A stretch of 63,981 bases of DNA, the filler included, from Stramenopiles sp. TOSAG23-6 (lineage: Eukaryota): the NCBI GenBank assembly GCA_900128565.1. It is 4 parts of 4 records of this genome, joined end to end, with 100 filler letters (N's around TTAATTAATTAA, not from the genome) between each part and the next. Parts side by side here need not be neighbours in the genome. Positions count along the whole stretch, not along the records: positions 1 to 16,589 come from LT636092.1; 3 more parts are not named here. One strand, 5' to 3'. Positions within the stretch are counted from its first letter, which is position 1, and each line of letters opens with the position of its first letter. A program made the position numbers and the translations under genes. The notes beneath the pieces were generated by a model that was not told the DNA's origin, ran no database searches, and worked only from the letters and a program-made list of their open reading frames with translations. Shown here piece by piece: positions 6,873 to 55,463 of this stretch.

Positions 6873-9744
6873 TTACACTGTCTCTGAATCATCTTTCCTT
6901 ACTATTAATTCTGCGACCACACCATTATTATCAGAAACACCTCCAACAGGATCCAATGCTCTCATTTGAATTACACTCTGTGTCTCCCAAGATTGAGGAA
7001 TTTCATATTGAAAATTGCCACTTTTAAACCATACAGCCTCAGTTGTAACAGTATCAGACCATGATGATCTGATTTTTTGCTCCTGTAGATAATCAATTTG
7101 CTTTTGGTCAGGTGTTCCAAGATAGTGAGAAACAACACTTGTAAAGTCTCCCATTACAATGTCAGTACCAGCTCTAAATATCTGGTTGATAGCCTCAACC
7201 TTGACCTCAGTAATGTGTTTTTCCTGGGCATTATCTTCAACTTTCTCTCCACTGCAAAGATCCACATTAGCCACTACAATGTTTGTGCTTGGTCTTAGTT
7301 TTAGTTCCAATTTTAACAAAAGTGTTTCCCTCTGTATTTCACAAAACTCTGCAGGAATCTTCTGCTTACTCTCCTCACCTGGTGATACATCCCAATCAGA
7401 ATTACGCCTCAATAAAAATGCTTGTAGATGAGTACGCTGTATCTGTTTACCATTACCACCTACATAGAGATTCCTCATGACTTTTTCATAGCATGGAGAA
7501 AAGTCAGTATGTCGGTCAAATAATGGTACTGTCTGCAAGGCTACAACATCTGGAGTATGTATTTCAAGTTGCTGTGCTAGAGTGTCACGAATGTATCATG
7601 AAAATATATTATGTCAAATTCGAAATTTGTTAGTATATTATAGAATTTGGTACAGAGAAATATTAACTTTGAAATTCATGATGAAAACGTGCATTTCTTC
7701 TGGCCTTCTTCCATCAGGGTTTACCAATCCCAAATTGATTGTTGCCACCTTAATTTTTGGATATAGACCCTTTTCACTTATTACTTCTCTACAGATTGGT
7801 AGTCCATAATTCACTTGATAAACTGGAAGAACCGCCTGGATATCTCTTACCATAAAGTAACCAGCTACTGTATCGGGGTAGTCACGATTCATACTCCAAC
7901 TATCGTATTTTGCTTCCGGCGTTTCATAAGATTTCCATTTTGCATTTGTTTTTGTTCTTCCTGGTGCTACAAGATTCAAAATGACACTTCCATGATATGA
8001 TCCATCATCAGTATTACCAAAATGAAAAGCTGGTTCTGTCGCATATCTATCTAAATAAACTGCATTCCCCATTACATTTCCATTTTCCCTTGGGTGTCTT
8101 TCTCCATCATATATTTCACCACCTATACGGTATCCATCTTCAAATATTTTTTCTCTTGCGTTCTGATCACGACATCCATGCCATAGCCATTCTAACTTGT
8201 CTGATACGTCTCTTTTTTTTAATTCTTCAGCTTTTTTGTAAAACGGAATCGATAGCTTTTCATTTTCACATACAATAACAGATTTTACCTCACGTTCGCC
8301 CCAAGCATTGTCCCATTCCCAACCTTCTCTTACCTGCAAAGTTTTAAATTTTCTGGCTGCAAATTCAAAGTGACTCTTGAGAAATGGATCTTTTTCTGTT
8401 GAAAATATTTCAACACAATGTGCCGAATGGGTTATCTTTGCTTCTCCTTTCGCATCGGACTGTCTGACACTTTTCTGGAGTGGTTCCGGAAGATGTCGTT
8501 TAGTTACATATTGCCATTTCAAAAATGCAGATTTTAATTTACGTGAAAGGAACTTTAACTTTTCTTCATGTAATGCCAAGAGTTTTTGTCGATCATTTAC
8601 TCCAAGTACCAAAAAAGAATGTTCATGTATCCCTAATTCTGGGTGAATTGCATTTAATAAACTTCTAATATGATTTTTTTTCAATGATACATTATTCCAT
8701 TCAACGAGCTGACATGTACTGTGAAAAATATGTAAATAAATATATCGTAAGATATGAAATTTGGTACAAAAAAAACTTTAAAATTGATGATGAAAAAGTA
8801 CGTGTATCAGCAAACAACTGCCTACTCTCTTCTAAACCAGGAAGTGGAAGAAAACTATCTTCAGTTCCAAGAAAATCCAATAGAAAACGTTGACGTGCTC
8901 GTTCTCTTTTTCTATACTTTTCTTGGAGAGGATCTAGATCAAGTAATGTGAAAAAATATGTCAAATTTGAAAATCCTCAGATATGAAATTCATTACAAAA
9001 AACGCTAACCCTAATTAAAATTAATGATAAAAACGTACAGATAAAAAGGGATACCTTTCAAAAGCTACAGCAACATTGTCATACATAACTTTAGCACCTT
9101 TCAATAGATTAATTTCAAGTTTTATCTTTTCTCGAGGATCCTTGCTTCCTTTTTCACGTGCTCGATGTATTGTGAAAAATATGTAAAATTCGAAATTCGT
9201 TAGGTATGGAATTTGGTACAAAAACAAAATTGAAATTTTACTGATGAAAAGGAAAACGCACAGGTACTTCAAGATGCCTAATTCTGCTTAAAGCATTTGC
9301 TTCATAATTTTTAAAAAGTCTTTCCATTTCGTCTTTTTTTTTTATTATTTGTACTTTGTCCTTGTTCATTTCTTCTTTGTACTTGTTTATTTCTTCTTTG
9401 TATTTTAACAATTCCGATAGCTTTTCTTCTAGAGCCATAATCTCTATTTGTTTTTTGGGTGTTCTTTTTCTTTGGTTCCTTTCATGAAGTATTTTCTCGC
9501 GTGTTTTTGTTACTTCTGCATCAAGATCCGGGTGTTTTATTAATTTTAATTTTGCTTCGTGAAGTTCCATAGAATGTAATGTACTTTCATGAAATTCAAC
9601 AATGACTTTCCTATCTTGAAGAATTCTCTGGAAAATCGCTTCATGATGTTCTCGACGTTCCGTCCTCAATTCATATTCTTTGGCGGAAAGTGCCCCATTC
9701 ACAGTGACAAAGTTTAGAAATAGTAATAAGATACATATTGACAT
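6873..9744 (-). CDS. Five-exon gene: signal peptide, coiled coil, PARP-like catalytic domain and degenerate EEP domain
   Basis: Five ORF pieces join in frame after removing introns 9165-9261, 8941-9038, 8714-8801 and 7591-7692. PARP-like WLWHGC..KIFEDGY..GNAVYL..VLPVYQVNY; EEP-like PDVVALQ, VMGDF, SD. Confidence 0.7.
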
Positions 9745-10095: not shown

Positions 10096-11121
10096 ATGGG
10101 GACTACGTTTTCAACTAAATCGACGGAAGCAGTGTCTACAAAAGGTGATTTCAATTCAAACCAAAAAAGCGAAAAGATTGGTTCAAGCATAGATGAAATA
10201 CATGCTCAAGTTAGATCCGCTTATCATCGTACAGCAGAAGGTGGATCTCTTGCTACAGGTGCTTCTGCAGGTTGTTGTGGTGTTGAAAGGGACTATGACG
10301 CAGTATCAATGCGTTTAGGCTACACTGCGGAAGATATTGAAAAAGCTGGGGAAAGTAACCTTGGTTTGGGGTGTGGCCAACCCGTTAGTTGGGCAAACTT
10401 AAAACCTGGTGAGTTTGTTATTGATTTAGGCTCAGGTGCAGGTTTTGATTGTGTTTTAGCTGCTGGTCAGGTCGGACCAAAAGGCAAAGTTGTTGGTATT
10501 GACATGACACCTAAAATGGTTGATAAAGCAAATAGGAGTGTCAAAGAAAAAGGTTTGTCTGAATATGTACAATTTATTCATAGTGAAATTGAACATTTAC
10601 CTGTTGAAAGTGGTATGTTTGACTGTTTATTATCAAATTGTGTAGTGAATCTTTCTCCTGATAAAAACCAAGTATGTACGTTTTCAAAATTGAATTTCAA
10701 ATTTTTATCTTTTTTTCGTACGAAATTTCGTACCTAATGAATTTTGACTACATTTTTTTTTCACAAAACATGTCGAGAAGCCTTTCGAGTACTCAAAGAA
10801 GGTGGAAGACTTTGTATATCTGATATTATTGCGACAACAGAAATACCAGAAAGACTTCAAACTGCTGAAGCTTTGGCATGCTGAGTTGCAGGAGCCTCAC
10901 GAAAACATGAATTACAGACAATGCTTGAAAATGCTGGCTTTGTCAATGTATACATTGAAGAGAAACCTACAAGTAAGAATTTTATAAAGGATTGGCTTCC
11001 TGGAAGTGGTGCAGAGAATTTTGTAGTTTCTGCAAAAATATCAGCAAGTAAACCAATGATGGAAGTACTAGGAGTCAAAGATGAAATCGTTCATTCGACT
11101 ACTACATCTAAAAGTCGTTGA
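10096..11121 (+). CDS. AS3MT: Arsenite S-adenosylmethyltransferase (ArsM/AS3MT family), two exons, probable selenoprotein
   Basis: [37 protein letters not shown]. Removing 10676-10771 gives [20 protein letters not shown]. In-frame TGA at 10882-10884 in AC*VAGA, after which family-like sequence continues. The start codon is the first in-frame ATG. Confidence 0.9.
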
Positions 11122-12294: not shown

Positions 12295-13197
12295 TTATAA
12301 GAAGTATTTATACCAAATCAAACCTCCCGCCAAAAGTAGTAAGGGTGAACTTTCCAGAGCATAATTTACCTGACTAGTGATTTTTGTATATAAAGTTGTA
12401 TCCTCTCTCTCCTGTGTCAAAGTTACAAGTGAACTCACTAAAGCTGACATCCTATTATAATCAAGATCCCAATAGCAGTTTTGATTCTTACGAAAATTGA
12501 TTGGAGTTCGCTCTGTTTCGTCTTGCATCCCTCCAAATGCAAATACAGTGTTTATCAAATATGTCACATTCAAAATTTGTTTAGGTACAAAAAAAACATA
12601 GAATTTGAAAGGATAGAAAACCTTTGAAGTGAGTATGAAAAAAAAAACAATTTAAAATTTAAAATTTAAAATTTAAAATTCATGATGAAAATATAAATTT
12701 AAAAAAAATACATTGTTAGGTACAAAATTTCGTATGAAAACAAATAAATTTGAAAATAAAGTAAAAACAACATACATTCATCATAGATTTTACGATATCT
12801 TTTCGTTTTCTCTTTTTCAGGTTCAATTGAAATTGTTTTAGCATCGAAGGAATCTCCTCTCGTATGATAACACGCATTTCGCATTTCTGAAGTGTCTGCA
12901 ATTAAAATCGCTGGAAGTTTATTTTCCCAAAATGAAGCATGTATTTTGGAAAAATATTTGAAAATAAATCTAAAAACTTTTGTTAGGTACAAAATTTCGT
13001 ACGAAAACAAATTCGAATTTGAAAAAAAATAAAACATACATGGTCAGAACGCATGAAATCATTAAACAATCCTGGATTTTCCTTTGCATTTGGGAGCTTC
13101 TTGTACATTGTGGATATTCTTGATTGATTTGAACCATAATTACAATTAATTTCTTGGTATTCTTTGATTTCATTGCGAGCTTTTAAAAACAAATACA
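12295..13197 (-). CDS. M28-family peptidase-like gene, 3' part only (5' end lost at the inversion junction)
   Basis: Removing intron 12939-13039 rebuilds RSDH|ASFWENKLPAILIADTSEMRNACYHTRGD. Exon structure between 12575 and 12775 is unresolved. C-terminal hydrophobic tail. Confidence 0.65.
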
Positions 13198-16589: not shown

Positions 16590-16689
16590 NNNNNNNNNNN
16601 NNNNNNNNNNNNNNNNNNNNNNNNNNNNNNNNNTTAATTAATTAANNNNNNNNNNNNNNNNNNNNNNNNNNNNNNNNNNNNNNNNNNNN
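16590..16689. other. Artificial contig spacer
   Basis: N44-TTAATTAATTAA-N44, giving stops in all six frames. Confidence 0.99.
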
Positions 16690-16744
16690 AATTTTGTACC
16701 TAACAAATTTTAGTTTTTTTTTGAAATATTTTTCCAAAATACAT

Positions 16745-21328: not shown

Positions 21329-23345
21329 ATGGCAATGCTTGCAAACTCAGCAATGATTAAAGAGGAACCGCTTCCTGCAGTTCGCCCTGCTGGAGGTGGT
21401 GCCCTTGATGGTTTCGAAGCCGCTTTTGGTGTCAAGTTAGAGTCTGCGAATCCAGTTTCGAAGCGCCCGTTCTCTTCGATATCAACACCACAGCCAGGAG
21501 GTGGTAATAAACGATGGGCAAGCAGCAGCGGTAAAGCGAAGGATGTTGATCGAAGCGGATTAATGTCTTTTGGGTCTCCAGCGCCTCGCGTGAATAACAA
21601 AGCCAAGACTCCTGCGTCAACTTTGGCTTCGCGTTATACGAGTCGCTTGAACGCCGGTAAAGTAGCTTTTACATACAATAAGCAAATTCCTGTCGCCCAG
21701 TCAACAGCTAACGAGGTATCACTTAGTACACAAATGGTTAATGCCAATGTTTCAGTGAAGGTTCTTAGAGGACTTACTAAGGAACAACCTCGATACATGT
21801 ACACCTCCATGTCCCAGAGAGCTCAGGTTATGGAAGACCGTTTACTTGGAATGAGAAAAACTCTGAAGCAACAATATCTTCTTGGAGAAATTACACCTGT
21901 AGGGGTACCTAGTCAAACTGTTGTAACTGTAGTGGGTCGAGTGTGTTGTGAGCCACCTGCTGGTATGACAGAAAATGAACGCGAGAGGTTAGATGTAAAG
22001 GGATTAATGTTAGAAGGGTCACGAGAACACTCTCGTGGAGCTCGGGTACGTCTCAATTTGAAGCGCATAGCAGCATTTTCTCTTTTCCCAGGACAAGTGG
22101 TCGCCATACAAGGTATCAATGCAAGTGGTTCAGAGATGACAGTTCATCGCATTTATCATGGATGTCCAAGGTCTGCAGCTGCAACTCCTCTGGAAGAAAT
22201 TAGAAGGTTTCAGAGCAATCGTGCTGGAAAGCCTTTATCAATATGGGCTGCGTCTGGTCCATTTACTTTAAGTAGCGATTTAAACTATTTACCCCTTGTG
22301 GACATTCTTAACGAAGCAAAAATACACTCGCCAGATGTTATCATGTATTTTTTCAGCATCAATTTTAAATTTATTTTTTTCGTACGAAAGTTTGTACCTA
22401 ACAAAAAAATTGAAAATATTTTCCCAAAATACATACTCCAAGGTCCATTTGTTGATTTAAATCACCCTATGGTAAAAAGTGGAAGACTTCGTATTCCAGA
22501 TCTAGAGAAGAAACAGACAGGTAGCACAGCAATGAAGGATGTAACTTACGACCAACTCTTTACTGAGCAAGTTATTCTTAAAATGTTGGTGGAAATGTCA
22601 CATTTAGATCTTAAAAGTAAAATTGTGTTAGTTCCGTCTATACAAGATGCACACCATACACCAGTATTTCCACAACCAGCATTTTCTTCGCGCTTCTTCA
22701 CCGATGAATTGGGTAGTGATTTCACAAATAATGGACAGATTATGTCCGTACCAAATCCCTCAACGCTGAAAATTGGAGACGTCACCATGACAGTTGTACG
22801 TTTTATATGAATTTCCAATTTAATTTTTTTTTTCATACGAAATTTCGTACCTAACGATTTTTTTGTAGAAATATTTTTTCACAATACTTGGTAGTCATGA
22901 CATTATTGGGCATCAACTTGGTCGAGACTGTTACCGCTGGGCAGCTCAAGCAGCTGCAAAGAATGCAAAACGGCCAAAGAAGCCAATGATTCTTGCAGCA
23001 AACTGTATCAACCAGCGTAGTATGTACCCAATTTTCCCACCAAAACAAGGATTTCCTCTCGACTTGGCGTTATTACGTCATGCAACTTTGCCATGTTCTC
23101 CTGATATTTTATTACTACGATCACAGCTCAATTTCTTTGCTGATGCAATGCCTAGTGCTGCAACGGGAGGTGCGAATACAATTGCTGTGAATGCTGGGAC
23201 ACTTTGCAGAAAATGTGCTCCTGGAACATATGCTCGCATTGTGATTCAGCCACTTAAGCTGGAAGATAAAGACAACCAAACAGAAAGTGAAGCCAAGACA
23301 CACCAAATTTCATCGCGAACTCGTGTTGAAATTGTTAGGATTTAA
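21329..23345 (+). CDS. POLA2: DNA polymerase alpha subunit B, three exons
   Basis: VVGRVCCE, SLFPGQVVAIQGINASG, ASGPFT. Removing 22345-22434 gives PDVIILQGPFVD; removing 22796-22889 gives NPSTLKIGDVTMTVGSHDII. Also QRSMYPIFP and PDILLLRSQLNFFA. Confidence 0.93.
22796..22889 (+). mobile_element. Introner-like intron, GT..TT, flanking TT repeat
   Basis: GTT|GTACG...CACAATACTT|GGT joins the POLA2 exons in frame. Confidence 0.8.
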
Positions 23346-23481: not shown

Positions 23482-26395
23482 TTATTTCTTTGATAATTTT
23501 TCCAATATTTTCATGCGCGTTTGTTGATCATAATTTGTCGCAGAATATATATTTTGAACAAAAGCTCGAAATGAAACAATTCCAGGAGCTTCTTGTTGGT
23601 ACTGATGAGAACGATCTTGTATCCATGATCTTGGCGTTACATTAGCTAGAACTTGACATATGGATAGTATCGCTGTTATACCCCATCCGCTTACGTTATA
23701 GGTTTCAATATTTGACTTTATCTTTTTCAACATTGGAATTATAAACCCTTTCAAAACACTCCTAATGGCAATGTTCGCTAATCTTCCTTTGATTGAAACA
23801 TCTTTAATCTTGTTACATCGGCAAATTGATAAATATAAGCATAACATTTCAAATATATTCAATGTGAATTTTTCACTAACTTGTCCCGAAATAGTATTTA
23901 TTTCAGAAGGTGGTTGAAGTAAACTAATGCAATACTCAAGACGTTGGATTACTGCATCACAGAGCATTGTGAATGGCTTCCATGGTAGTGTTTGTGATGA
24001 CGACGTTGGATTCCTATATTGGCGTTCTTTATTATGACTCATTGGTCTATACAATCCAACTTCATTTATATTATCAACAACGCTTTTCGTTTGGCGATTA
24101 CTTTTATTTGGAGCCCAACAATGCTCAATAGAATGAAGCAAACATGGTACAATGGAATATTCAACAAGAAAAGGAAGAAGTTTCTCCTCAGCCTCGCCAA
24201 TATCATAATCATCTCTAGCACCCTCAGTAAAGATATGATTGTAGCTATACAAATCCTTCCACCACAAAAACTGTTGGAATCCAATCACACCCATATCATC
24301 ATCATATAATTTGTCATTTAAAGATTCGTCAGATGGTGGGGGTTGAGGACCAAAGGATGAAACAGGTTCCAATGGCTTCAATATAAGTGGATCCCATGTA
24401 GAAAGTACCTCTAACTTTGCCCATATAGATATTAATTGAGGCATTGAAAACGCTACGTACGCTTGACCATAGGCTTCAGGGGATGTTATACGAATTTTAC
24501 GAAATCTTTCAACAACTTGTTGTAAAGACTTACAATTTGATTTTTCATCTACATCTGAAAATACCAAAGATGCTGCTTCAAGTGCACTTTTCCTTCTTTC
24601 TTCGATAGAATCATATATAGATTGTTCAAATGGTAAAATCGCATTTACTGTAAACTTTCCTTCAGATGAAATACATCGAAAGTTTGGACAACCAAATTGA
24701 ATGCTAAATCCACTTCTATCAAAACCACATGATAATTTATCAATCGATTTTAATGCATTCATTAAAAAACTCATAGATTCTCTCGGATGCATTGTACTAT
24801 TCGTAAGCCATAATTTACATACTTCAATGGATGAAATGTATTTTGGAAAAATATTTCAAAAAAAACGACTAAAATTTGTTAGGTACACAATTTTTTGAAA
24901 AAAATAAATTCGGAATTGAAAAAAATAAAACATACATGATTCTCGGATTATTTGGCATTTCTTCTGTGACATTTTTAATACAGGTTTGTACTTTGTTTGT
25001 AGCATCAATTCGTAGTTGATAAATTGCTTGCTCTAACTGATCGACTTTTGGTAATTTATCTCGTACACAACCAACTAGAGTTTTCCCATAATCGGCAAAC
25101 TTTTGTAAAAAAACATGTACTAAAGAATAATATTTTTGTTTTGTAAAATTTGTTAGGTATGAAATTTCGTATGAAAAAAAAAATTAGATAAAAAATTAAA
25201 AAAAAATCAAACCTACATACTCATTTGATAAAATATCTATTTGTTTTTCTATTGATTTAGCTGATTTTTTTGCTTCTACAGATCTTTCTTCCATTTCAAT
25301 CAATTTTTGTTCAGATTGGTATTGAATACTTTCTACTGCTCGTAATTGAGTCTTGAGAATTTGTATTATTTCTACAGTTGTACGAAGGGTAGATAAATCA
25401 CTACTTGAATATTCACTCATGGGACGTACAGTCATCGTAGGGTTATTGTTGTTTTTACTTTGAAATGTATTCGAAACTTTACCAAAACTAGCTTTGAGTG
25501 CACGCTGTATCTGCTGTTGCTCCCACACACTTTGCGTTTGACCAGTAGCTACAGTAGAAGAAATATTATCTATGTCATCAACACTAAGCTTTGTAGACGT
25601 CTTATTGATTCGTTCGGTAGAAAAATCAGTCGGTCTCAATTTGGAATGTCTTCCTACATTTACATTGTCGTCACCAGTGACTAATACAGAGTCATCACGT
25701 TGACCATCACGTTGGCCAAGTAACACGAAATCACTTCCTTTTTCTAGCGACCCTTCTTTTGTATTCCGCTGATGAGCTCTTTGTAGCTTTGCTTGTCGAA
25801 TCTTACCAGCATCGAAGAGCGGCTTTGCTAATGATATATCATCACCGGGTAACTGTGCATCATCTTCAAGACTGTACTGTTCCGATTGGTCCTTCGTGAC
25901 ATTTATTGTTTTGTACTGTTGCTGCTTACGAAGTTTTGCAAGAGACTCCACAGAGTAATTCCCCCCACCACTTATTGTACGATTGGTACTATTTATCGAT
26001 ACTTCCTCTTTACGTAGTAGAGTAGAAGCTTCTTTTGTTTTTCGTGTACTACTGTTCTTTGTTTTTTTTCGATGCAGCGCACGTGATACTTTAGACTTTT
26101 TAACTTTGAAGACGGATGTCTCTTCACCTTCCAGCTCATCTGTGCAGAGGCTCATACCTCTACTATTGATCAAAGTATTGTGATTTGTACTACTACTTCT
26201 AAAATTGCTGTTGCTTTTCTTACCCTTTTTACGTGAACGTTTTTTAAATTTCGGCATATCAGATTTTGGTACTGTTATTGGAGCTTCCACAGGAGTTGAA
26301 CTTATACTGACATCTTCATCTAGATCACCAACTGACGACGTAGGTCTAAAGGAAGCCATTCGTCTCCTACGTTTTCTTTTATTAAATTCAGACAT
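23482..26395 (-). CDS. GC-rich sequence DNA-binding factor-like protein (GCFC2/PAXBP1 family), three exons
   Basis: WEQQQIQRA; YVFLQKFADYGKTLVGCVRDKLPKV after removing 25115-25216; VFSDVDE and YGQAYVAFSMP..WDPL. Second intron 24836-24935 joins in frame. Confidence 0.8.
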
Positions 26396-26708: not shown

Positions 26709-27809
26709 ATGGCATTACTGAGTACAATTCCGCTTTATCAGGTGGACGCTTTCGCCGAAGCCCCATTTGCTGGTAATCCGGCTGCTGTATGTTTATTGGC
26801 ACCTGGAGTTCAGCCCAGTGATGACGTTCTTTTGAAGATTGCTCAAGAAATGAACTTATCAGAAACTGCGTTTGTTCAAATAGTAGAAGGAGTTGATTTT
26901 AGCTCGGGTCGGAAATTTCGCTTGAGGTGGTTCACTCCAATGTGTGAAGTTGCTTTATGTGGCCATGCAACTATGGCGACTGCTTCTGTGATATTTTACC
27001 AAAAAGGAAATAAAAATCAAAAGATCGAGTTTGAGACAACCCAAGGCGCAGGCAGTCTATTTGCTTCTATTGGTCCAGTGGATAGTGGATATCAGACTGT
27101 TTGTATGGAACTCCCAGTCAATGCACCAACGTCATCAACTCGATACACACTCGAAAATATCTTGGTGAAGAGACTTGCAAAGGCTCTAGGTTCAAATATA
27201 TGTCCAAACATATTGTCACACTTGGTAGACGTTCAGTATTCTCAGACAACTAAGAAACTTTTACTTCGTCTTGATGATACGTTTAGTCGAAAGGAACTTG
27301 AAGATTTGAAGCCAAACATTTCTGATTTATTAGCCGCGACAAAAGGTAGTGACGGTGTAAAAGGTCTAATTATAACTCTACGAGGAAATGGAAAATATGT
27401 ATGTTTTATTTTTTTTCAAATTTTATTTTGTTTCATACGAAATTTTGTACCTAACGAATTTTTTTTTTCAAATATTTTTCCAAAATACATAATTTTTATT
27501 CAAGATATTTTGCACCCTGGGTAGGTATCAATGAAGACCCAGTGACTGGAAGCGCCCATACAGTTTTAGCTCCATACTGGAGTCTTCAATTAAACGTAAA
27601 AACTCTACATGCAAGGCAATGTGTACGTTTTATTTTTTTTCACGAATTTTTTTTCGTACGAAATTTTGTACCTAACGATTTTTTTTTTCAAATATTTTTC
27701 CAAAATACGTTCTGCCAGGGGTGGGGATTTATTCTTGGAAATTTGTGGTAAATTTCTGTCTGTCACTGGAAGCACTGCTTTAGTTTTTTCTGGGGATCTC
27801 GTATTGTGA
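26709..27809 (+). CDS. PBLD: PhzF/PBLD-family epimerase-like protein, three exons
   Basis: QVDAFAEAPFAGNPAAVC, EMNLSETAF, LRWFTP.CEVALCGHAT. Removing 27399-27490 and 27623-27710 gives KYNFYSRYFAPWVGINEDPVTGSAH and ARQCSARGG. Confidence 0.93.
27399..27490 (+). mobile_element. Type example of the introner-like non-AG intron (GT..AT, flanking AT repeat)
   Basis: TAT|GTATGTTTT..CATACGAAATTTTGTACCTAAC..GAAATATTTTTCCAAAATAC-like end..AT|AAT; removal restores YNFYSRYFAPW. Confidence 0.85.
27623..27710 (+). mobile_element. Introner-like intron, GT..GT, flanking GT repeat
   Basis: TGT|GTACG...AAAATACGT|TCT restores QCSARGG; the intron contains no AG. Confidence 0.85.
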
Positions 27810-28136
27810 AAAACACGAAATTTTACCAAAAAAAACTGGTTTCGTACGAAAAAAAATCGAAATTGAAAAGATATCACAAAATATTTGAAAAAAAAATCGT
27901 TAGGTACGAAATTTCGTACGAAAAAAAATCGAAATTGAAAAGATATCACAAACATTAGTGTCTTTGGAAAAGTGTAAAACAGAGCATAATACGAAATATA
28001 TAGTGCATATTATTATTATTATTATTATTTATAGTATACTATTATTCGTTATGTACAGAATTTGGTTTAGTTTTTTATTATTTGAGTATTTTTGTATCCT
28101 TGTAGGTTTTTTTTTTTGAGGTGATGTCAACAACTG

Positions 28137-29851
28137 TTATTTCTTGTTAGGGTTAGGGTCAACAACTGGGATTTCTTTTTCAACCTCTCTTTTTCGTTTT
28201 CCTTTACTATCTTTTTTCCTTCTTTTTTTTTCAGCTGGGGGGAATAAATACACATCAAACCTTTCTTTTAATTCATCCCAGTGGAAGCGTCGAAGCTTAA
28301 CACCATGAAGTATCTCACGCCTGTATTATAAAAAAAATATGTCAAACATTTCATTTCTTTATTAGGGTTAGGGTTAATAAAATATGGTACATTTTTTTTT
28401 TATAGTATACACGTACACCCTATCACGCAATCGACTGGGATAATTACAAAAATCTTTCAATTTTCTTACCAGTTGTCTTTCAGTGTTATAAAGACATTCT
28501 TTGGGGAAAAAGTCTGGATACGAAAGTCTATTTGGACAAACCGGGAAACATGTCTTGTGGGAAAAAAAAATTACAAAAAAAAATTGTTAGGTACGAAATT
28601 TCGTATGAAAATCAAAAAAAAAAAAAAAATTAGAAATTCATATAAAACGTACATCCTTGCCAAGCACATTCTAGTGTACTTACACCAAAAAATTCGTGAT
28701 CTGCAGTAGATAGTGCCACGTCAGCATCCCGAAGCACATTTAAATATTCCTTTCGAGAAGGTAGATACCCCCAATGTAAAACATGATTATTAAGTTTTTC
28801 TCTTGCACTTTTGAATATTTCAGGGGTCTCTTTAAAACTTTCTCCAAGAATTGAGATCTTAAAGTTACATGTATTGTAGGAAAATATTTTTTTTTAGTAA
28901 ATTTTTTTGTTAGGTACGAAATTTCGTACGAAAAAAAAAACTAAATTTGGAAATTAATGATAAAAACATACATCCTTTATCTTTTAATTCAAGAAGCACG
29001 CGGAATAATAAATCTGGATTTTTGTCGAATTCCCAGCGGTGGGCCCATACAATATGTAAAGGTAACGTTGTACCAAATGTGTCAGAAGAACGTGAGGTGT
29101 AATTTTCAACTACATTGATTTTTCTATTGAGGTTATTTGGTAAAAGTAACTTATTTTCAATTGAGTTGTTTTTTCTATCGGAATTTTTTTTTTCATCGGT
29201 TGTATCCAATGAAACAATAGTAGCACCTTTAGATAAATGATGTAAAGGTTTAACATCTACTAAAGGTGTAGATGGGGACATATGCAATGGGAAAAAGAGA
29301 ACATCGGATTTAGCTTGGATGCGTTCAACAACATTTGAAGGACGACAGTCTTTTGGTATACGTGATAATATACGAGGTATGTTATCTAAAAAACATTTAC
29401 GATTATAGGAAGAATTAAATAACACCACATCCGCAACGAGAGAAGAAACAATTTGATTCCACCCAAGAGCCCAGTCACGTTGACCCGCAGCATCTTTTTG
29501 GCGACTTGGATAAGTCAGCTGGTTTTCATGGAAATAATATACCTTATGTAAACTCGATAAATCGGGACGCATTCCAAGAAGTTCACACAAATTCAGCATT
29601 GAGCTCGCAAATAATGAAGTAGTATTGTTTTTTGATGGGTTAGGAATTATCGTTGCGAAATGGGCCGCTGATACCAACAACCGCCAGTGCCATTTTTTAC
29701 CTGGAAGAGTAAAAATATCTAAAGAATGACAAGAACTCGGGGAGTTGTAAGTTTTAGCTAAGAGATCTACAAACTGCTGATGTGAACCTCCACCAAACGG
29801 CTCAATTAAGATTGCATGTCGTGCATTCGTTTTAACAAGCAAATCAGTCAT
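28137..29851 (-). CDS. GTDC1: GTDC1-like GT4 glycosyltransferase (DUF3524), four exons
   Basis: EPFGGGSH, KWHWR, YFHENQLTYP, FNSSYN, WAHRWEFDKNP, HEFFGVS. Introns 28869-28971, 28550-28652 and 28321-28416 restore the frame (GCFPVCPNRLSYP). Confidence 0.9.
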
Positions 29852-33059: not shown

Positions 33060-33151
33060 GTATGTTTTATTTTTTTTCAAATTCGAAGTTTTTTTTTCGT
33101 ACGCAATTTTGTACCTAACGATTTTTTTTTGAAATATTTTTCCAAAATACA

Positions 33152-33302: not shown

Positions 33303-34784
33303 ATGTGTCAACATTATCAATAAAGTTGGCGAGATAGATTCCTTCCAAACCTTTTACTTTTTCAAAATCACATTTTATGTAGGCAAATATTTCAATGATT
33401 TTGTTTTGTAACATGTTAGTGTACATGTAAATGTATTTTTTTAATATGTTTTTGTAATTTCAGGAAAAAAAAAATCAAAAAAAAAAAAAAAAAAATTTAA
33501 AAAGAAATTCAAAAAAAAAAAAATTAAAAAAAATATCGTTTTTTCAATGATAACATACACGTTCCTGCAAGATTTCGTCGATTATGTGGTAAACTGAGAG
33601 TATATCCTTTGCCTTCCGCATCTGATACATAAATATTTCCCCAATTTGATTTTTCGCCGATATGATTTACATGCAAAAACACGGAATCTTCAGAAGTATC
33701 CAAAATTGTATACGACTGTATTTTTGTACAATATTTCATTTTTTTTAGTAAAAATTGTTAGGTACAAATTTACGTACGAAAAAAAAATTCTGAAAAAAAA
33801 ATTGAAAAAAAAAATTGTTAGGTACAAAATTTCGTACGAAAAAAAAATTGAAAAAAAAAAACGTACATGTTCTTTTAAACCTTCAAATGGCATTTTTGCA
33901 ATATGAAAATGTTGACCACCATCACTTGAAAGATTCAATTCAACCGCTTCAGAGTTATGTGCTGTGACTTGTGCAACAAATAAAAACTTTGGTGTAAATA
34001 AAAATCGATTTCCACGTTTGACGAGAACTTTTGGTTGAGTTTTCCAGTAATCAGTTGTTTCTACAAAATCAATACGTTGATCCCAAAAACCAAATCTTTG
34101 ATGTCCAGATTTTACATTGAATTCTGTAGCGAAAATGGCATGTAGAGGGAGTCTATCCGCTTGTCCTCGTTCCAGATTATGTGCCCATTCAAACTGGACA
34201 ATATAATGTTGAAGAAATTTCCACGTCGCACCAAAATCTTCCGATAGGTACAAATTTTTGTAACAAAATCCTTCGCTTGATTTATTCTTACAGTTATCTG
34301 ACATGACTGCGGCCAAGATCAAATTCACATCTTTAGGATGCATTTTCATTTCAGTAAAGACCATCTTTTCATTAATTGTAGACCACGTTTTCCCACAGTC
34401 TTTTGTAGACCAATGAACTTTGTCTTTTGAAACAAGAATCGCAAAGTCTTTATTTACAGGACTTTGAACGATTTCAACAATTCCTTTTTCTTTTTGGAAC
34501 TTTTCAAGTCTTGATGTTTGATTGGTCCAACTTCGACCAGCATCAGATGATCGATACACAGTATTTTGTTCAGTCAGGAGAAGAACAGTTCGACTTTCCG
34601 CACCCATCCAAACCATATCTTTAACCTGTCCTTCAATCTCTTTCTCAGTGACGACAACATTTGCACTAGCACGACTAAGACTCGCTGCGGTTGAACTCAT
34701 TCCTGACGTATAATACGGTTGTGCTACAACCATAGAAAACAGTGAAATTATGAGTAGACAAGGCTTCATAGTATTTGCTTTCAT
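33303..34784 (-). CDS. Vps10/sortilin-family receptor, 5' part
   Basis: Signal peptide; BNR/Asp-box repeats (YRSSDAGRSW, STKDCGKTW, LYLSEDFGATW); GNIYVSDAEG..YTLSL; DFEKVKGLEGIYLAN. Introns 33716-33866 and 33372-33558. Confidence 0.88.
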
Positions 34785-35066: not shown

Positions 35067-36398
35067 ATGAATGCCTTATTACGATCCGTCGGAACATTAC
35101 CAATACGAAATAATGTTATGCGTTGCATGGCGACGCAATCTGTATGTTGACTTTTGTAATAATTCAGTTGGACTTGTGTCTCATGTTTTATTCTTTCCAA
35201 AATACTTTTACGAATCAACGTGTGTTTCTTTCTTTTTTTCTTTTTTACGCACAACTACGAACACATGTACTCATTTTATCCTCTTGAAATACACACATAA
35301 CTATTATACAATACAGCAAAACATGAAAACATTTCAAATTTACAGATATGACCCAGAAGGTTCTGCTAAACCTACACTACAATCATATGACGTTGATATG
35401 AACGAATGTGGACCGATGGTTTTAGATGCACTCATTAAAATCAAAAACGAACTTGATGCTACTTTAACCTTTCGTAGATCTTGCCGTGAAGGTATCTGTG
35501 GATCATGCGCAATGAACATTGACGGTCGTAACACACTCGCATGTCTTGCTCATATTGATACTGAGAAATCGGACTCTAAAATTTACCCACTTCCTCACAT
35601 GCACGTTCTCAAAGATCTTGTTCCCGATATGACCAACTTTTATGAACAATATCGTTCTATCGAACCTTGGTTACAGACAAAAGAAACCAAAGATGAGAAT
35701 ACTGAATGGTTACAAACAAAAGATGATCGTAAGAAATTGGATGGAATGTATGAATGTATCTTGTGTGCGTGTTGTAGCACATCATGTACGTTGTTCTTTT
35801 TGGAATTTTATTTTGGTCATTTTGGACATTTTGGAATTGTATTTTTTTTTAATTTGGTTTTCATCATACATTTGTTTGAAACCAAGCAGTAGTAGTAGTA
35901 TTCTTCAAACTATTCAAATGAGTGTTTTTGTAGAAAAAAGAATTCATATGATTCGATTTTGTATTTTTATGAATTTTTTGTAGTGTACCAATTTTGTCGT
36001 AACATTTTGTTGAATTTTTATATTTTTTCACAAATCAGGTCCTAGTTACTGGTGGAATCAGGATAAATACCTAGGTCCAGCTGTTCTAATGTACGTTTTT
36101 CATAATGAATTGTATAGGACTCATTCCATATTGTTGTTGTTTTTACTATGAAACATTTGTATCTAACAAAGAAATATATTTTTTTGAAAATATTTTCGTA
36201 CATGACATGCAAGCCTATAGATGGGTGGAAGATTCACGTGATTCAATGACAAAGGAAAGACTGGAAGCTTTAAATGACTCTTTTAAACTGTTTCGTTGTC
36301 ATACTATTATGAATTGTACAAAAACATGTCCTAAAGGGCTTAATCCTGGTAAAGCTGTGGCTCATTTGAAAAACAGAATTCATGAAGGCAATTTATAA
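35067..36398 (+). CDS. SDHB: Succinate dehydrogenase iron-sulfur subunit, four exons
   Basis: Exons 35067-35141, 35317-35785, 36039-36090 and 36209-36398 give [42 protein letters not shown] and [17 protein letters not shown]. Confidence 0.97.
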
Positions 36399-40336: not shown

Positions 40337-43300
40337 TTAAAAATCTGGAATACTAGTAAATTTTTTACCAATATTCATAATTCTCTGTCTTCTTCTTTGT
40401 GTTCTAGTCAATGGTTTTGGTTTCTTAAATGGTACAAATCTGTTTTTCTTTGCTTTTTCTTTTCTTCTTTGTCGTTTCGCTTCAATTTCATCACTATCAT
40501 CATCACTATCAGATATACAACTATCTTCTTCATCATCTGTATTTTGGGTTGGATTTGATTTTGATTTAGTTTTTAATAGTTTAGTATGAAATTTTTGTAG
40601 CATTCGTACAGCAGCTAAAGGTCCAGTTACATGAGACTGTCCGTCTTCAACTGATATTGTTGATCCTAGACTCATCTCTGAATTCAAATCTGTACTTAAA
40701 TCTGTACTTAAATCTGTACTTATACTATTGGAAGTGTCATTTGTTGCCGTTGATATAGATTTATCATTTTGTTTTTCATCATTTGTGTTTTTTATATTTT
40801 TTTGTACTGTATCATTACTTTTGTTTGTATTAGATTTTATTTTCTTTTGTTCTTTTTCTAAAAGGTCCTTTTTTTTCTTTTCTGCTTTTGCGAGTTTTCT
40901 TGCTTTTTTTGCTTTTAATTTTTCAGCTTTTCGTTTAGCTCGTTTTTCTTTACGTAGTTTTTCTAATTGTGCTGCTTTTTTTGCTTTTTTATCTGCAATT
41001 TCTTGTTCACGAATTTTCTTTTGTTCATTTCTAAAAGCTACTCTTTGTTTATGTCTTGTGAAAAAATATTGAAAAAAAAAAAAAAAAATTATTCAGTATG
41101 AAAGTTTCAATGAAAAAAAATAAATGAAATTATACAGTGGATCACGTACAATATATGACTTTCCACTACCTGGAGATGAAACTGAATTTGAACCAAATAC
41201 AAAATATTCATCAATTTTAAATGGTTTATCTATTTCAGATGTTTCAGATGTTTTTTTATCTACATTTTTTTTGGTATTTTTTGTATTTTTTTCATGTTTC
41301 TCAGTAATCATTGGGAATGGTTTAGTTACAGGTTTGTCAAAAGAATAATATATACCATTATAATAATCAGGTTGCATACTAATACCTTGCGTTACACCTC
41401 GTGGAGTACCTCCTTTGATCTCAGGTTGAATTAAATGTTTTTTTTCTATATTTTGTTCTATATTTTGTTCTTCATTTTGTTCTTCATTTTTTTCTTCATT
41501 TTTTTCTATATTTTCAAAATGAAGTATTGTTTCAAAATTTGGTATTTTCATATTTATAGTATCACTTGTAATACTATCATTTTCTTCAGAATGTTTGGTA
41601 TGTAAAGATTTGTTTTGTATTGAATTTGTTGATTGTTTACCTTCTTCTATTATTGGATTCTGAAAATGTTGATCAGCAGGTGTAGCAGGTCTGTCTAACA
41701 TAGATATTAATTCCGGTAATGAATTATTTTGCAGTTTAAAATAACTTTCTCTATTTACATGTAGTATAAAAAGATATTTCAATCATTTGGTTTGTTTTTG
41801 TTAGGTATACGAATACAAAAATAATACAAAAATAATACAAAAATAATACAAAAATAATACAAAAATAATACATTTTTTTTTACAAAAAAAAAAGTTTTGT
41901 TAGGTACGAAATTTCGTACGAAAAAAAAAAACAATTTGTAAAATTCATGATGAAAAACATACATCTGATTCCTTCACTCTTTGACGAAACTTTGCCGCAG
42001 TGCCACGTGTCACTGGTCTTGCATTACGTGGTATAATATTTGACAAATCCATTGTATGAAGTAAAGATAAATTTTCATTTCTTTCCATCTTTGGTATTTT
42101 TGATATTTTTGGTATTTTTGGAGGTTTGAATGAATCATTTTGTACAGCTATAGATAACATTGAATGTTCCATACTTTTAGGGTTAGGTTTNTCGATATGT
42201 TTCGGATTTTTTTCTATACTTTTTTTAGCTACAATTTCTTCAATTGTTTGAGAAGATGATCGTGTCACTGGACGACTATTGAAAAGACTCTTTGCATCAT
42301 CACTATCATAATCTTCATCATTTGTTTTAGACAATTGTTGAGTACCTACAGAAATATTTTCATTTTTTTCATTTTTTTCATTTTTTTTAATATAGTTTTT
42401 TCTTTTTTCCATTTGTAATTTTATTCGTGCTTTATTTTGCCTAGCTTCCCTCAATTTTTGTATCTGTATTTGCTTTTGTTGAGCTAATCGAATCTCTCGT
42501 TTTGAATTCACTATATCCCAAGATGATGTACTTATGGAAAATATTTTAAAATTTTAATTTTTTTTTTGTTAGGTACAAAATTTCGTACAAAAAAAAAAAA
42601 AAATTAAATTAAAATAAATGTTTTGAAAGACGTACAAGGTTGTTTCTTTTGTAAATTTAATTTTTCAGATACTTTATGTGAGTGATGTACCATGTGTTGT
42701 ACAGAAATATTTAAAAAAAAATAATTTAGGTTTTTAGTTTTTAATTTTTTAAGTTTTTAGTTTTTAATTTTTTAGTGTTTGACTTTTTTGTTAGGTACAA
42801 ATTTTTCATACTAAAAAAAAAAATATATATAAAAAAATTGATACTGTAATGTAACGTACATATTATTCACATTAGCATGTGACGTTTTAAAGTGTTGTTG
42901 TTGCCTTGCTAAAGATTCCTCTAAAATATATATTGTAGGAAAATATTTCAAAAAAAAAAAAAATATTTTTTTTGTTAGGTACAAATTTTACTATAAAAAA
43001 AAATAAAAAAAAAAAATTTCAATTTTGAAAATCTACATGATTATTTTCTACTTTGTATACTTTACGAATAAGAGCTTGAGTGCCACGTGTCATTTCTCGA
43101 ATTTTATCTACAGCATGATGCCCTTGTCGTTTATGTGACGTTCGTAATCGTGACTTTGGTCTTTCTGCAATGTTTTTTTGATATTGTAGATATTTTTGAT
43201 AATTTTTATATTTTTGATATTTTTGAAATTTTTCATTTTTTTGAAATTTTTGATTTTTTTGAAATTTTTCATTTTTTTGATATTTTTGATATTTTTGATA

Positions 43301-44413
43301 TTTTTGTTTCTCTGATTGCAACAATGCATCTCTACTATCAAGTCTTTGTTTTTGTTGAGACATTTGTTTTGTATCATTTTTATCATTTTGAATATCATCA
43401 TTTTTATTTTGATCATTTCTATATTGAATATTTTCAATATTTTTTTTCGTAGATAATTTCGTACCTAACGTTTTTTTTTCTTGTGGACGATCAACACTAA
43501 ACTGACCATCTACAGATTCATAATATACATCACCATCTTCATCAATAAATTCTGACCATCCCAATGGTAACCTTGGTGTACTTTCTTTTGTATCTACATC
43601 TATAGGTACATCATTAGGGTTAGGGTTTTCAAACTCCTCAAAAATTTCATTATTTTGGATTTTTTCTCCAAACGAATTTTTTTCAAAATTTTCATTATTT
43701 TCCAATGTTTTCGTGTATTCACGTAAAATTTTTCCAGTTCGTCCAGGATGTGCATTTGCTTCTTTCCAAGCTAGACCAATAATTATATTTGAAAGAGTAG
43801 GAAATCGATTTTGAAGATTTCGTGCAATATTTTTCATATCTTGAATATTTTTTGAATTTTTTAAATTTTTTGAACTTTTTAAATTTTTTAAATTTTTTGA
43901 ATTTTGTAGTAAAATTTGTACTAAATCATCAATATTATTTTTTTTTTCAATGACATGTTTTCTATTGATTTCGTGTGTACGCATAATTGTCCCTCCTTGA
44001 ATCTTTGCTGATCGACTACTACCATCTGTCAACATTTTTGTATGTCGATTTGATAATTCATATTTTTTACGTAATTTTTCTTTTCTTTTTTCAGAAAAAT
44101 GTTTTCTATTTATTTCGTGTTGTTGTTGAAGATTTTGTTCTGTTTGTGTTGACTCAAAAGATTCACTTAAAATATTTTCTACAACAAATTTTCCTGAAAG
44201 TCTGTGTAATAGTGTATTTTTATTATTATTATCATCATTATTATCATTATCATTATTATTATTATTAGTAGTAGTAGTATTATTAGTATTAGTATTATTA
44301 TTATTATCATTATTATTATTATTATTATCATCATTATTATCATCATTATTATCATTATTATTATTATTATTAGTATTATTAGTATTATTATTATCATTAT
44401 TATTATTAGTAGT

Positions 44414-54890: not shown

Positions 54891-55463
54891 ACTTTCATTA
54901 TTGATTGAAAACATCTCAAAAAGGGAGATATTTTACCTGTATTCTACAATGATACTCCGAGACTTTTTTTTAATGAAATGAAATGAAATAAAGTTGATAG
55001 ATAAGAATATTCTTTTTCTGTAATCTAAAGTTCTGTTGGCTTTTTACTTTTTTTTTTTTTGGTTTTCATACGAAATTTTGTACCTAAGCAAAAANTTNGT
55101 TTTTTTTTTNGNTNAANTTTTTTCTTACTACACAAATCACAAAAGGATTTTGTGTTAAAGGAATACAACACTTACTCTTGATGATGATGCCTGTGCTCGT
55201 GTTGAGGTCGCAACTTTGAGGTCACAACTTTGCGAAAACGAAAACCACAGGAAGAATACTATTACATAATTCATTTATTGTGTTTGTTGACGTAAATTAT
55301 TACGGTAAATTAATGACGACGTTACGGTGACACGTAGTACAGACACAAATCGGGCGCTGCTACGCCGCATTTGAATGACGTTTTGCCTTAAGGCGTCGGA
55401 GAAAAACGCAAATAAACAACACAAATTAATCAACATTAATTAAGATCCTGGTCCTGATTAAAC

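What the first reader, a model, noticed from the sequence alone, without database searches (positions are those of the whole stretch)
10713..10737. Conserved palindromic core immediately 5' of the branch-like CTAAC
Seen: TTTCGTACGAAATTTCGTACCTAA(C) contains two overlapping perfect palindromes, TTTCGTACGAAA (12 bp) and GTACGAAATTTCGTAC (16 bp). It ends roughly 30-55 nt before the acceptor and is by far the most conserved part of otherwise homopolymeric introns. In introns it is always on the sense strand of the host gene, and it is often tandemly duplicated (33770-33840, 53400-53460, 53840-53930). Inference: it is an RNA signal, such as an extended U2 pairing site, a hairpin or a protein site that compensates for the missing AG. 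Strict sense orientation argues against ciliate-IES-like DNA excision.
Basis: partly seen in the sequence, partly recalled or inferred. Interest (0 to 1): 0.75.

Follow-up and report, generated by a model that had tools for sequence, protein, structure and literature searches.

The report
Mobile-intron core with branch site
The palindrome is the middle of a roughly 100-base repeated element that makes up most introns in this stretch of a marine stramenopile genome; the element carries its own branch site and usually ends in AT instead of the usual AG.

Summary
The motif is real and far above chance (12-mer 18 copies against 0.02 expected). It is not a free-standing signal. It is the centre of a 90-150 nt repeat family: GTAYGTTTT, a T-run, TTTCGTACGAAATTTYGTACCTAAC, an A/T spacer, AAATATTTTTYCAMAATAC, then 2 nt. 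nhmmer found 44 clusters of it in 55 kb, and 42 of 44 lie in the sense of the flanking reading frames. I set exact borders for 35 introns. Removing them restores reading frames in 31 of 35, against 3-6 of 35 when the end is shifted by 1-2 nt. Homologues confirm the junctions in SdhB, POLA2 and the ArsM-like gene that holds the finding. Last two bases: AT 25-26, AG 4, GT 2-3, TT 2, GG 1. Copies in unrelated genes reach 91% identity and form subfamilies, so this is an introner-like family. (G/A)TACCTAAC is kept and is the likely branch site. The palindromes decay at their CpGs without compensating changes, so a hairpin role is not supported. No RNA reads could be laid. The closest protein carries a MAST-3 label, and I found no paper on MAST-3 introns.

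The parts
10676..10771 (+). Intron that holds the finding (ArsM-like gene): GTACGTTT...CACAAAAC+AT, 96 nt
   Evidence: Homologues need [17 protein letters not shown] across the junction.
10714..10738 (+). The core: 12-nt and 16-nt palindromes followed by CCTAAT (a branch-site-like CTAAY)
9165..9261 (-). Element intron, GT..AT, degenerate core CCATACCTAAC
12939..13039 (-). Element intron, GT..AT
22345..22434 (+). Element intron in POLA2, GT..AT
   Evidence: homologues support the junction VI|IL
22796..22889 (+). Element intron in POLA2, GT..TT, exon ends TT
   Evidence: homologues support TMTV|GSHD
24836..24935 (-). Element intron, GT..AT
25115..25216 (-). Element intron, GT..AT, core TTTCATACCTAAC
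27399..27490 (+). Element intron in the PhzF-like gene, GT..AT
27623..27710 (+). Element intron in the PhzF-like gene, GT..GT, exon ends GT
28550..28652 (-). Element intron in the QTMAN-like gene, GT..AT
28869..28971 (-). Element intron in the QTMAN-like gene, GT..AT
33716..33866 (-). Element intron in the sortilin-like gene, GT..AG, core tandemly doubled
35786..36038 (+). SdhB intron 1: decayed family-like copy, GT..AG, no CTAAC
36091..36208 (+). SdhB intron 2: GT..GACAT, core decayed to TTTGTATCTAAC
   Evidence: homologues need GPAVL-M-QAYRW
42526..42635 (-). Element intron, GT..AT
42928..43036 (-). Element intron, GT..AT
44663..44822 (-). Element intron in the ankyrin gene, GT..AT, core doubled
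44892..44989 (-). Element intron, GT..AT
46891..46984 (+). Element intron, GT..GT
47089..47196 (+). Element intron, GT..AT
47311..47427 (+). Element intron, GT..AT, core GTACTTAAC
48642..48747 (+). Element intron, GT..AT. Its 5' end is unlike the family, and a 14-nt direct repeat spans both junctions
49052..49253 (+). Element intron, GT..AT
49905..50066 (-). Element intron, GT..AG
50347..50469 (-). Element intron, GT..AT. Upstream frame is ambiguous because Ns lie nearby
50737..50857 (-). Element intron, GT..AT
51175..51310 (-). Element intron, GT..TT, exon ends TT
51459..51567 (-). Element intron. The frame requires the end ..TTATGT (or ..AATTTA), not the rule-based ..TTTAT
53048..53142 (+). 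Element intron, GT..AT
53192..53503 (+). Long intron: GTGAGT donor, CCCTAA repeats, two core copies, ends GATAC+AT
53526..53672 (+). Element intron, GT..AT, core doubled
53826..53970 (+). Element intron, GT..AT, core doubled
61908..62026 (+). Element intron in the Pyr_redox_3 gene. The frame gives the end ..AATATGG
62148..62280 (+). Element intron, GT..AT
63421..63540 (+). Element intron, GC..AG
12713..12766 (-). Element copy in a longer intron; borders not set
16689..16742 (+). 3' half of an element next to an assembly gap
27876..27946 (-). Element copy with an internal duplication between convergent genes; borders not set
33060..33150 (+). Full element that ends at an assembly gap
41882..41950 (-). 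Element 5' half and core in a longer intron; 3' end not set
45301..45464 (-). Two core copies in one intron; the 3' end could be AT or AG
62514..62661 (+). Two decayed cores (TTTTTTACCTAA) in one intron with a perfect 3' block
63888..63978 (+). Element cut off by the window end
43433..43470 (+). Partial element (5' part and core) antisense inside a 560-aa ORF on the minus strand
49333..49373 (-). Core-only fragment antisense inside a 107-aa ORF on the plus strand
55059..55097 (+). Partial core copy downstream of the intronless S26e gene, next to Ns

Best explanation
The palindromic core is the central block of an introner-like repeat family, that is, a short non-coding mobile element that becomes an intron where it lands in a gene in the sense direction.

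Shown:
- One whole-length consensus is repeated in unrelated genes: GTAYGTTTT, a variable A/T stretch, a T-run, TTTCGTACGAAATTTYGTACCTAAC, an A/T spacer, AAATATTTTTYCAMAATAC, then 2 nt.
- Exact removal from GT to those last 2 nt restores the reading frames and the conserved protein sequence.
- The last 2 nt are mostly AT, not AG.

Inferred:
- The element brings its own donor (GUAYGU), branch site ((G/A)UACCUAAC, with the second A of UAA as branch point), pyrimidine tract (UAUUUUUYC) and 3' block. The spliceosome of this organism cuts 2 nt after ..AAUAC.
- Those 2 nt tend to repeat the last 2 nt of the upstream exon (AT/AT in most introns, TT/TT twice, GT/GT once). This looks like a 2-bp target-site duplication, so the 3' terminal dinucleotide comes from the target and not from the element.
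- The palindromes (CGTACG, and GTACGAAATTTCGTAC at the element's dyad centre) are inherited from the source element. After insertion they are not kept as RNA structure: they erode by CG to TG/CA changes, while the branch-site 9-mer is kept by selection for splicing.
For: 1. Whole-length family. nhmmer with a model from 11 seed copies finds 80 hits, of which those with E<=1e-3 merge into 44 clusters between 9 and 64 kb. Introns of unrelated genes are up to 91% identical over about 90 nt; the median is 71%.

2. Subfamilies. The C/T variant in the core (column 113) is linked to the C/A variant about 60 nt away in the 3' block. The counts are C-C 10, T-A 10, other combinations 8, Fisher p=0.006. 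Shared odd segments such as TATATGAATTTC, CAAATTCGAATTT and ACAAAAAAATCGAA are visible.

3. Intron status and borders. With 35 curated borders, 31 of 35 give an ORF of at least 90 nt on both sides. Shifting the 3' border by -2, -1, +1 or +2 gives 3, 6, 3 and 5 of 35. For 13 of the 35 the 3' border was itself chosen by frame, so the cleanest test is the other 22, set by the '2 nt after AC' rule. I did not count those 22 separately.

4. Independent junction checks by homology: SdhB CSTS-C-PSYWWN and GPAVL-M-QAYRW; POLA2; ArsM-like [11 protein letters not shown].

5. Ends. AT 26, AG 4, TT 2, GT 2, GG 1; moves one AT to GT or TA. The exon-end dinucleotide is AT in 23 of 35. Both TT-ending introns follow a TT exon end (4 of 35 exons end TT), and one of the two GT-ending introns follows GT.

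6. Orientation: 42 of 44 clusters are in sense.

7. Decay pattern. Every weakly conserved column inside the conserved blocks is a CpG position (columns 17, 85, 86, 105, 106, 113, 114), and the changes are mostly C to T or G to A. TACCTAAC is 0.96-1.0 conserved.

8. No covariation supports either hairpin or end-to-end pairing.

9. One independent copy with the same ends (AT|GTATG...CACAATAC|AT) lies in a gene on metagenome contig L001.
Against: - No RNA evidence. Splicing and the exact junctions are inferred from frames and homology.
- No presence/absence polymorphism and no autonomous partner element was seen, so mobility is inferred from similarity alone.
- The terminal inverted repeat is weak (GTAYGTTTT against AAAATAC, 7-8 nt), and its pairing shows no covariation.
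- The 2-nt repeat fails in 12 of 35 introns. AT is so common on both sides that the TSD reading rests mainly on three TT/GT cases. Selection on splice sites could give the same picture.
- Two junctions carry longer repeats (14 and 8 nt), which a fixed 2-bp TSD does not explain.
- Copies are only moderately alike (median 71% in A/T-rich sequence), and almost every intron seen here belongs to the family, including introns in SdhB. That is also what a very strict species-wide intron consensus would give.
- The set was found through a model that includes the core, so core conservation is partly circular.
- One curated border breaks the frame.
Confidence: 0.68

Rival explanations
1. Ordinary, non-mobile introns. 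The organism has an unusually long and strict intron consensus (donor, branch region, 3' block), and all introns have converged on it, as with the strict signals of yeasts or Ostreococcus. The core would then be pure signal.
For: - Nearly all introns found in the window carry the pattern, including decayed versions in the housekeeping gene SdhB and three decayed copies in one gene at 8.7-9.3 kb.
- The blocks that are conserved (5' GT..GTTTT, TACCTAAC, the 3' block) are those expected of splice signals.
- Earlier notes of this scan record look-alike Ostreococcus introns that turned out to be consensus, not introners.
Against: - Similarity reaches 91% over whole introns, including stretches with no expected signal role.
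- Distant variants are linked into subfamilies (p=0.006).
- Partial copies lie antisense inside ORFs, and one lies outside coding sequence.
- The palindromic CpGs decay freely, which a required signal would not.
- Core-bearing segments are tandemly duplicated.
Confidence: 0.15
2. One reading: the palindromes form an RNA hairpin, or a site for a dimeric protein, that marks the branch region and makes up for the missing AG.
For: - Where the 16-mer is intact, the minimum-energy fold contains the 6-bp hairpin right next to CUAAC (4 of 10 folded introns).
- The AAATTT centre and the flanking T-run are 0.89-1.0 conserved.
- The stem of the 12-mer is paired in 94% of cells with 3 double changes; 26 of 500 shuffles reach that.
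Against: - The exact 16-mer is present in only 6 copies.
- Two of its six pairs are broken in 13 and 10 of 28 sequences, with no compensation. Pairing is no better than shuffled (340 of 500 reach it).
- The three double changes in the 12-mer stem are both CpG transitions and may be inherited together.
- Introns with a ruined left half (for example 24836-24935, 63421-63540 and 42928-43036) still have intact frames around them.
- Fold z-scores are ordinary in 9 of 10 introns.
Confidence: 0.1
3. U12-type (minor spliceosome) AT-AC introns. Because the 2 nt are repeated, most introns can also be read as ATGTAYG...AC.
For: - 23 of 35 introns can be shifted to AT...AC because of the AT/AT repeat.
- TACCTAAC loosely resembles the U12 branch consensus TCCTTAAC. 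That consensus is recalled from memory, not taken from a call.
Against: - The same architecture occurs with ends that cannot be shifted: GT-AG and GC-AG in 4 introns. The SdhB Fe-S cysteine requires GT-AG there.
- The donor is GTAYGT, not the recalled ATATCC.
- The branch A lies 33-62 nt from the end, well beyond the short distance I recall for U12 introns.
- Rfam finds no U12-type snRNA in the window, but the window is only 64 kb.
Confidence: 0.03
4. DNA-level excision, as with ciliate internal eliminated sequences or precise transposon excision, rather than RNA splicing.
For: - Short direct repeats at the borders.
- A weak terminal inverted repeat.
- The borders are not the spliceosomal GT-AG.
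Against: - 42 of 44 clusters are in the sense of the gene; DNA excision would not care about strand.
- A GTAYGT donor and a CTAAC branch motif are present.
- The nearest relatives by protein are stramenopiles, a group without nuclear dualism as far as I recall.
Confidence: 0.02

Closest known systems
Introner elements (Micromonas, Aureococcus and many aquatic eukaryotes; PMC9860276, passages read)
   Same: - Families of short, non-coding, near-identical introns spread over unrelated genes.
- Some families have a TSD, and one splice site is taken from the TSD.
- Found mostly in marine protists.
   Different: - Here the 3' end is mostly AT rather than AG.
- The putative TSD is only 2 bp and supplies the terminal dinucleotide.
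- The family appears to make up nearly all introns in the window.
- The passages I read do not mention MAST or stramenopiles. The one supplementary file held was searched for four terms only.
Non-canonical introns and introner elements of Amoebophrya (PMC7789003, passages read)
   Same: - Repeated introns with non-GT/AG borders.
- Direct repeats overlap the exon/intron borders, and inverted repeats join the intron ends.
- The authors propose a MITE-like origin.
   Different: - Amoebophrya shows no dominant border dinucleotides, has 3-5 nt direct repeats and 8-20 nt inverted repeats, and is GC-rich (54-58% reported for some genes).
- Here the donor is a regular GTAYGT, there is one dominant 3' end (AT), a strong CTAAC branch motif and only a weak terminal inverted repeat, in 26-38% GC DNA.
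Non-canonical introns of the tunicate Fritillaria borealis (PMC13326754, abstract and passages read)
   Same: - Most introns escape the AG rule at the 3' end; 3' AC and 3' AT classes exist.
- They are processed by a modified major spliceosome, and the paper cites introner transposons with weak splice sites as a possible source.
   Different: - In Fritillaria the 5' GT is lost as well, and divergent U2AF paralogues are implicated.
- Here the 5' site stays canonical. U2AF could not be examined because no genome is held.
Strict branch-site introns of yeasts, and of Giardia and Trichomonas
   Same: A nearly invariant ..CTAAC branch motif and a GTAYGT donor. This resemblance is recalled, not taken from a call.
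   Different: Those organisms are intron-poor and use AG. Their introns do not share whole-length similarity or subfamilies.

Membership tests
Introner-like element family | Several introns in unrelated genes are alike over their whole length | tested here: met
   44 clusters; up to 91% identity between introns of different genes
Introner-like element family | Similarity stops at the intron borders, so it is not gene duplication | tested here: met
   Exon flanks differ. Beyond the 2-nt repeat only 2 of 35 junctions share more than 4 nt, and the host genes belong to different Pfam families
Introner-like element family | Insertion footprint (target-site duplication) | tested here: inconclusive
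   The 2-nt repeat is present in 23 of 35 introns, including TT/TT twice and GT/GT once, but AT is common on both sides and 12 of 35 do not match
Introner-like element family | Evidence of movement: presence/absence between strains, intergenic copies, an autonomous partner | tested here: inconclusive
   - Two antisense partial copies in ORFs and one copy outside coding sequence.
- One copy on another contig, L001.
- No polymorphism data and no transposase seen
Introner-like element family | Removed from the transcript | not testable with these tools
Removal is supported only indirectly by frames and homology
U2-type GT-AG spliceosomal intron | GT (or GC) donor with a GTAYGT-like consensus | tested here: met
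   34 GT and 1 GC among 35 introns; G 0.96 and T 0.96 in the alignment
U2-type GT-AG spliceosomal intron | AG at the 3' end | tested here: not met
   4 of 35 introns end in AG
U2-type GT-AG spliceosomal intron | Branch motif upstream of a pyrimidine tract | tested here: met
   CTAAY is present in 33 of 35 introns, 33-62 nt from the end, followed by TATTTTTYC. The branch point itself has not been mapped
U12-type AT-AC intron | ATATCC-type donor and a branch site close to the 3' end (features recalled from memory) | tested here: not met
   The donor block is (AT)GTAYGTTTT and the distance is 33-62 nt
Ciliate-type IES / DNA excision | Independence from the gene strand | tested here: not met
   42 of 44 clusters are in sense
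Structured RNA element (conserved hairpin) | Base pairs kept through compensatory changes | tested here: not met
   no excess of pairing or covariation over the controls for the 16-nt hairpin or the end pairing, and only a marginal excess for the 4-bp stem

The most novel reading that the evidence does not exclude
An uncultured marine stramenopile (MAST-3-like) may have had most of its introns created by one mobile element whose insertion footprint, not an AG, forms the 3' splice site. In that case its major spliceosome would have been re-tuned to cut at ..AAUAC+NU. Matching changes would be expected in U2 snRNA (extended pairing to GUACCUAAC) and in U2AF or step-2 factors. The central palindrome would be the DNA-level handle of the still unknown mobilising enzyme. 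This would be a third, independent lineage, after Fritillaria and Amoebophrya, in which invading elements rewrote the splice code, and here with a single clean consensus that makes the mechanism tractable.
Probability: 0.3. Interest if true: 0.85.

Novelty: new variant of a known kind. Interest (0 to 1): 0.62.

Why it matters
If it holds genome-wide, this lineage gives a simple natural system for two open questions. The first is how a spliceosome picks a 3' splice site without AG. The second is how transposon-like elements create introns on a large scale.

It also has a practical side. The public gene models closest to this window force canonical sites at these introns. They lose conserved residues or keep intron-coded ones. 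Proteomes predicted for this group are therefore likely to be systematically wrong at many junctions.

Tried and rejected
Nothing was laid, so these runs support nothing.
- Transcript-derived proteins. Three searches found no near-identical protein other than two annotation models of one assembly. The best SdhB hit is 78% identical.
- Genetic code. Reading TGA as a sense codon (table 10) was a first guess for the many broken ORFs. I dropped it because most in-frame TGAs lie in the element's 3' part (..TTTTGAAATATT..).
- Whole genome and snRNAs. No genome is held and the window has no Rfam hit, so U2 pairing could not be tested.
- Viral contigs: 0 matches to the 25-mer.
- Metagenome contigs: 1 match, too few for statistics.
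- Literature. Searches for introners with non-canonical sites, for MAST-3 with introns, and for the motif itself gave no paper on these introns. The 95 papers that hold the 9-mer looked like primer lists in the 10 rows shown.
- Earlier notes of this scan: nothing for this genome or this sequence.
- Terminal pairing of the intron ends, as in Amoebophrya or euglenids: no support.
Full report
**What is at the site.** Window 10714-10738 reads TTTCGTACGAAATTTCGTACCTAAT. The motif is far above chance:
- 12-mer: 18 exact copies, 0.02 expected.
- 16-mer: 6 exact copies and 12 more with one mismatch, 0 expected.
- TTTCGTACCTAAC with up to one mismatch: 36 copies on both strands, 0.08 expected.

**What the window is.** It is A/T-rich (26-38% GC), has 278 Ns in assembly gaps and no Rfam match. 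No whole genome is held. Its ORFs match eukaryotic families: CAP-Gly, Nop53, an ArsM-like methyltransferase, Rpr2, DNA polymerase alpha subunit B, PhzF, QTMAN, Ldh_2, a Na/H exchanger, sortilin, SdhB, S26e, DUF285 and others. The closest proteins are two annotation models whose source name carries a MAST-3 label (92% and 100% identity). The next relatives are stramenopiles at 30-36% for POLA2 and up to 78% for SdhB. I take the organism to be a MAST-3-like marine stramenopile.

**The core is one block of a longer repeat.** Printing every copy with its flanks and aligning them shows one architecture:
- GTAYGTTTT
- a variable A/T stretch, often CAAATTCGAATTT, TATATGAATTTC or ACAAAAAAATCGAA
- a T-run
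- C(G/A)TACGAAATTTYGTACCTAAC(A/G)A
- an A/T spacer
- (G/C)AAATATTTTTYCAMAATAC
- two more bases.

A profile built from 11 seed copies finds 80 hits. Those with E of 1e-3 or less merge into 44 clusters, all between 9 and 64 kb.

**They are introns, and most do not end in AG.** For 35 of them I set both borders. The 5' border is the GTAYG motif. The 3' border lies two bases after the conserved ..AC for 22 introns and was chosen by reading frame for 13.
- Removing them in silico leaves an ORF of at least 90 nt on both sides in 31 of 35. Moving the 3' border by -2, -1, +1 or +2 gives 3, 6, 3 and 5 of 35.
- Homologues fix three genes independently. SdhB needs CSTS-C-PSYWWN and GPAVL-M-QAYRW, so its second intron is exactly 36091-36208 and ends GACAT. 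POLA2 needs VI|IL and TMTV|GSHD. The ArsM-like gene that holds the finding needs [17 protein letters not shown], the same length as the archaeal ArsM sequences.
- Last two bases: AT 26, AG 4, TT 2, GT 2, GG 1. For one of the AT cases (51461-51567) the frame instead demands ..TTATGT or ..AATTTA.
- The donor is GT in 34 and GC in 1.
- In the 33 introns with CTAAY, the branch-like A lies 33-62 nt from the end.

Because the last two exon bases are often the same as the last two intron bases, most introns could also be written TG..CA or AT..AC. The four AG introns have the same architecture and cannot be shifted. In SdhB intron 1 the shifted reading would replace an Fe-S cysteine. GT at the start is therefore the consistent reading.

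**Orientation.** 42 of 44 clusters lie on the strand of the longer flanking ORFs. The two exceptions, 43433-43470(+) and 49333-49373(-), are partial copies that lie antisense inside open frames. This fits removal at the RNA level, with loss of antisense insertions, and argues against DNA excision.

**Family or mere consensus?** Earlier notes of this scan warn that look-alike introns can be nothing more than strict splice signals. I favour common descent here for these reasons:
- Introns of unrelated genes are up to 91% identical over their whole length.
- The C/T variant in the core is linked to a C/A variant about 60 nt downstream (10, 10 and 8 in the three classes, p=0.006). Odd segments outside any expected signal are shared by subsets.
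- Core-bearing segments are tandemly doubled in at least seven introns.
- Fragments occur antisense and outside coding sequence.
- One further copy with the same ends lies in a gene on a metagenome contig.

Against this, I have no insertion polymorphism and no autonomous element. The inverted termini are short. Nearly every intron I could define belongs to the family, including decayed copies in SdhB and three in one gene at 8.7-9.3 kb.

**What the palindromes do.** In 27 aligned introns the block (G/A)TACCTAAC is 0.89-1.0 conserved. The lowest columns in all conserved blocks are the C and G of the four CpGs (0.50-0.89), and the changes are almost all C to T or G to A.
- The 16-nt hairpin has no compensatory change, two pairs broken in 13 and 10 of 28 sequences, and pairing no better than shuffled partners.
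- The 4-bp stem of the 12-mer is marginal.
- Pairing of the two intron ends shows nothing.
- Folding 10 introns gives z below -2 in only one.

So the palindromes look like inherited structure that is eroding, while the branch 9-mer is kept. The 3' 19-mer is as well kept as the core: 17 copies with up to one mismatch. The core is therefore not 'by far' the most conserved part.

**The two terminal bases.** The exon ends in AT in 23 of 35 introns, and 23 of 35 show the 2-nt repeat. Both TT-ending introns follow TT, and one of the two GT-ending introns follows GT. I read this as a 2-bp target duplication with a preference for AT, so the element itself ends at ..AAUAC and the cut falls two bases into the duplicated target. 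This is an inference: 12 of 35 do not match, and selection on splice sites could mimic it. Two junctions carry longer repeats (14 nt at 48642-48747, 8 nt at 51461-51567), which I cannot explain.

**Comparison with what is known.** Introner families are well described (PMC9860276, passages). Repeat-derived introns with non-canonical borders are described in Amoebophrya (PMC7789003, passages) and Fritillaria (PMC13326754, abstract and passages). This case differs in keeping a canonical donor and a strong branch motif while replacing AG by one dominant AT. I found no paper on MAST-3 introns in the held library. The methods of the single-cell genome paper mention introns only for gene prediction. 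Supplements of the introner paper were searched for four terms only.

**Limits.** There is no RNA evidence, no U2 or U2AF, only one 64-kb window, and borders set partly by frame.

Noticed in passing
window 10882-10884 (+), ArsM-like gene: An in-frame TGA aligns with the conserved cysteine of archaeal and bacterial ArsM (..SSCVAGA..). The public model P0241 and a transcript-derived protein of another protist (P0242) both stop exactly at this codon. This is probably a selenocysteine codon. No SECIS element was found at the Rfam gathering threshold.
   Followed up: partly
window 21317-23342 (POLA2) and 10000-11121 (ArsM-like): The closest public gene models force canonical splice sites at the element introns. 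P0001 drops VDILNEAKIHSPDVI and keeps intron-coded FVPNKKIENIFPKYI and KYFFTIL. P0241 joins NQV to SFRVL and loses CREA.
   Followed up: yes
window 1106-2089 (-) and 14501-15484 (+): Two ORF pairs give identical translations on opposite strands. This is an inverted duplication of about 1 kb or more, possibly an amplification or assembly chimera.
   Followed up: no
window 16590-16689, 33152-33251, 49537-49636: Three assembly gaps have the form 44 N + TTAATTAATTAA + 44 N, which looks like an artificial linker. Two of them cut element introns.
   Followed up: no
window 53205-53225; L001 about 1240-1330 (minus-strand reading): Telomere-like CCCTAA/TTAGGG repeats lie inside an intron with a GTGAGT donor in the window, and inside a GTAAGT intron of the metagenome contig.
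   Followed up: no
window 48642-48747 (+): The 14-nt string ATGTAATTGATTTT spans both junctions of this intron, and the intron's 5' end is unlike the family. It looks like a 5'-truncated copy that took its donor from a duplicated target. An 8-nt repeat, ATGTACGT, lies at 51461-51567.
   Followed up: partly
all element copies (alignment A2): Variation inside the conserved blocks is concentrated at CpG positions and runs CG to TG/CA. This hints at cytosine methylation or a strong CpG mutation bias in this organism.
   Followed up: partly
window 56700-58922 (-): A 741-aa DUF285 (BspA-like) protein gene is built from 219-bp tandem repeats.
   Followed up: no
window 8713-9036 (-): Two further decayed family introns lie in the same gene as 9165-9261. 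They share the variant GTACCAAATTYCATAYCT, and their branch motif has decayed to CTGAG and CTTAC. They end ..CATTAC+TT and ..CAGTAC+AT. I did not check their reading frames.
   Followed up: partly
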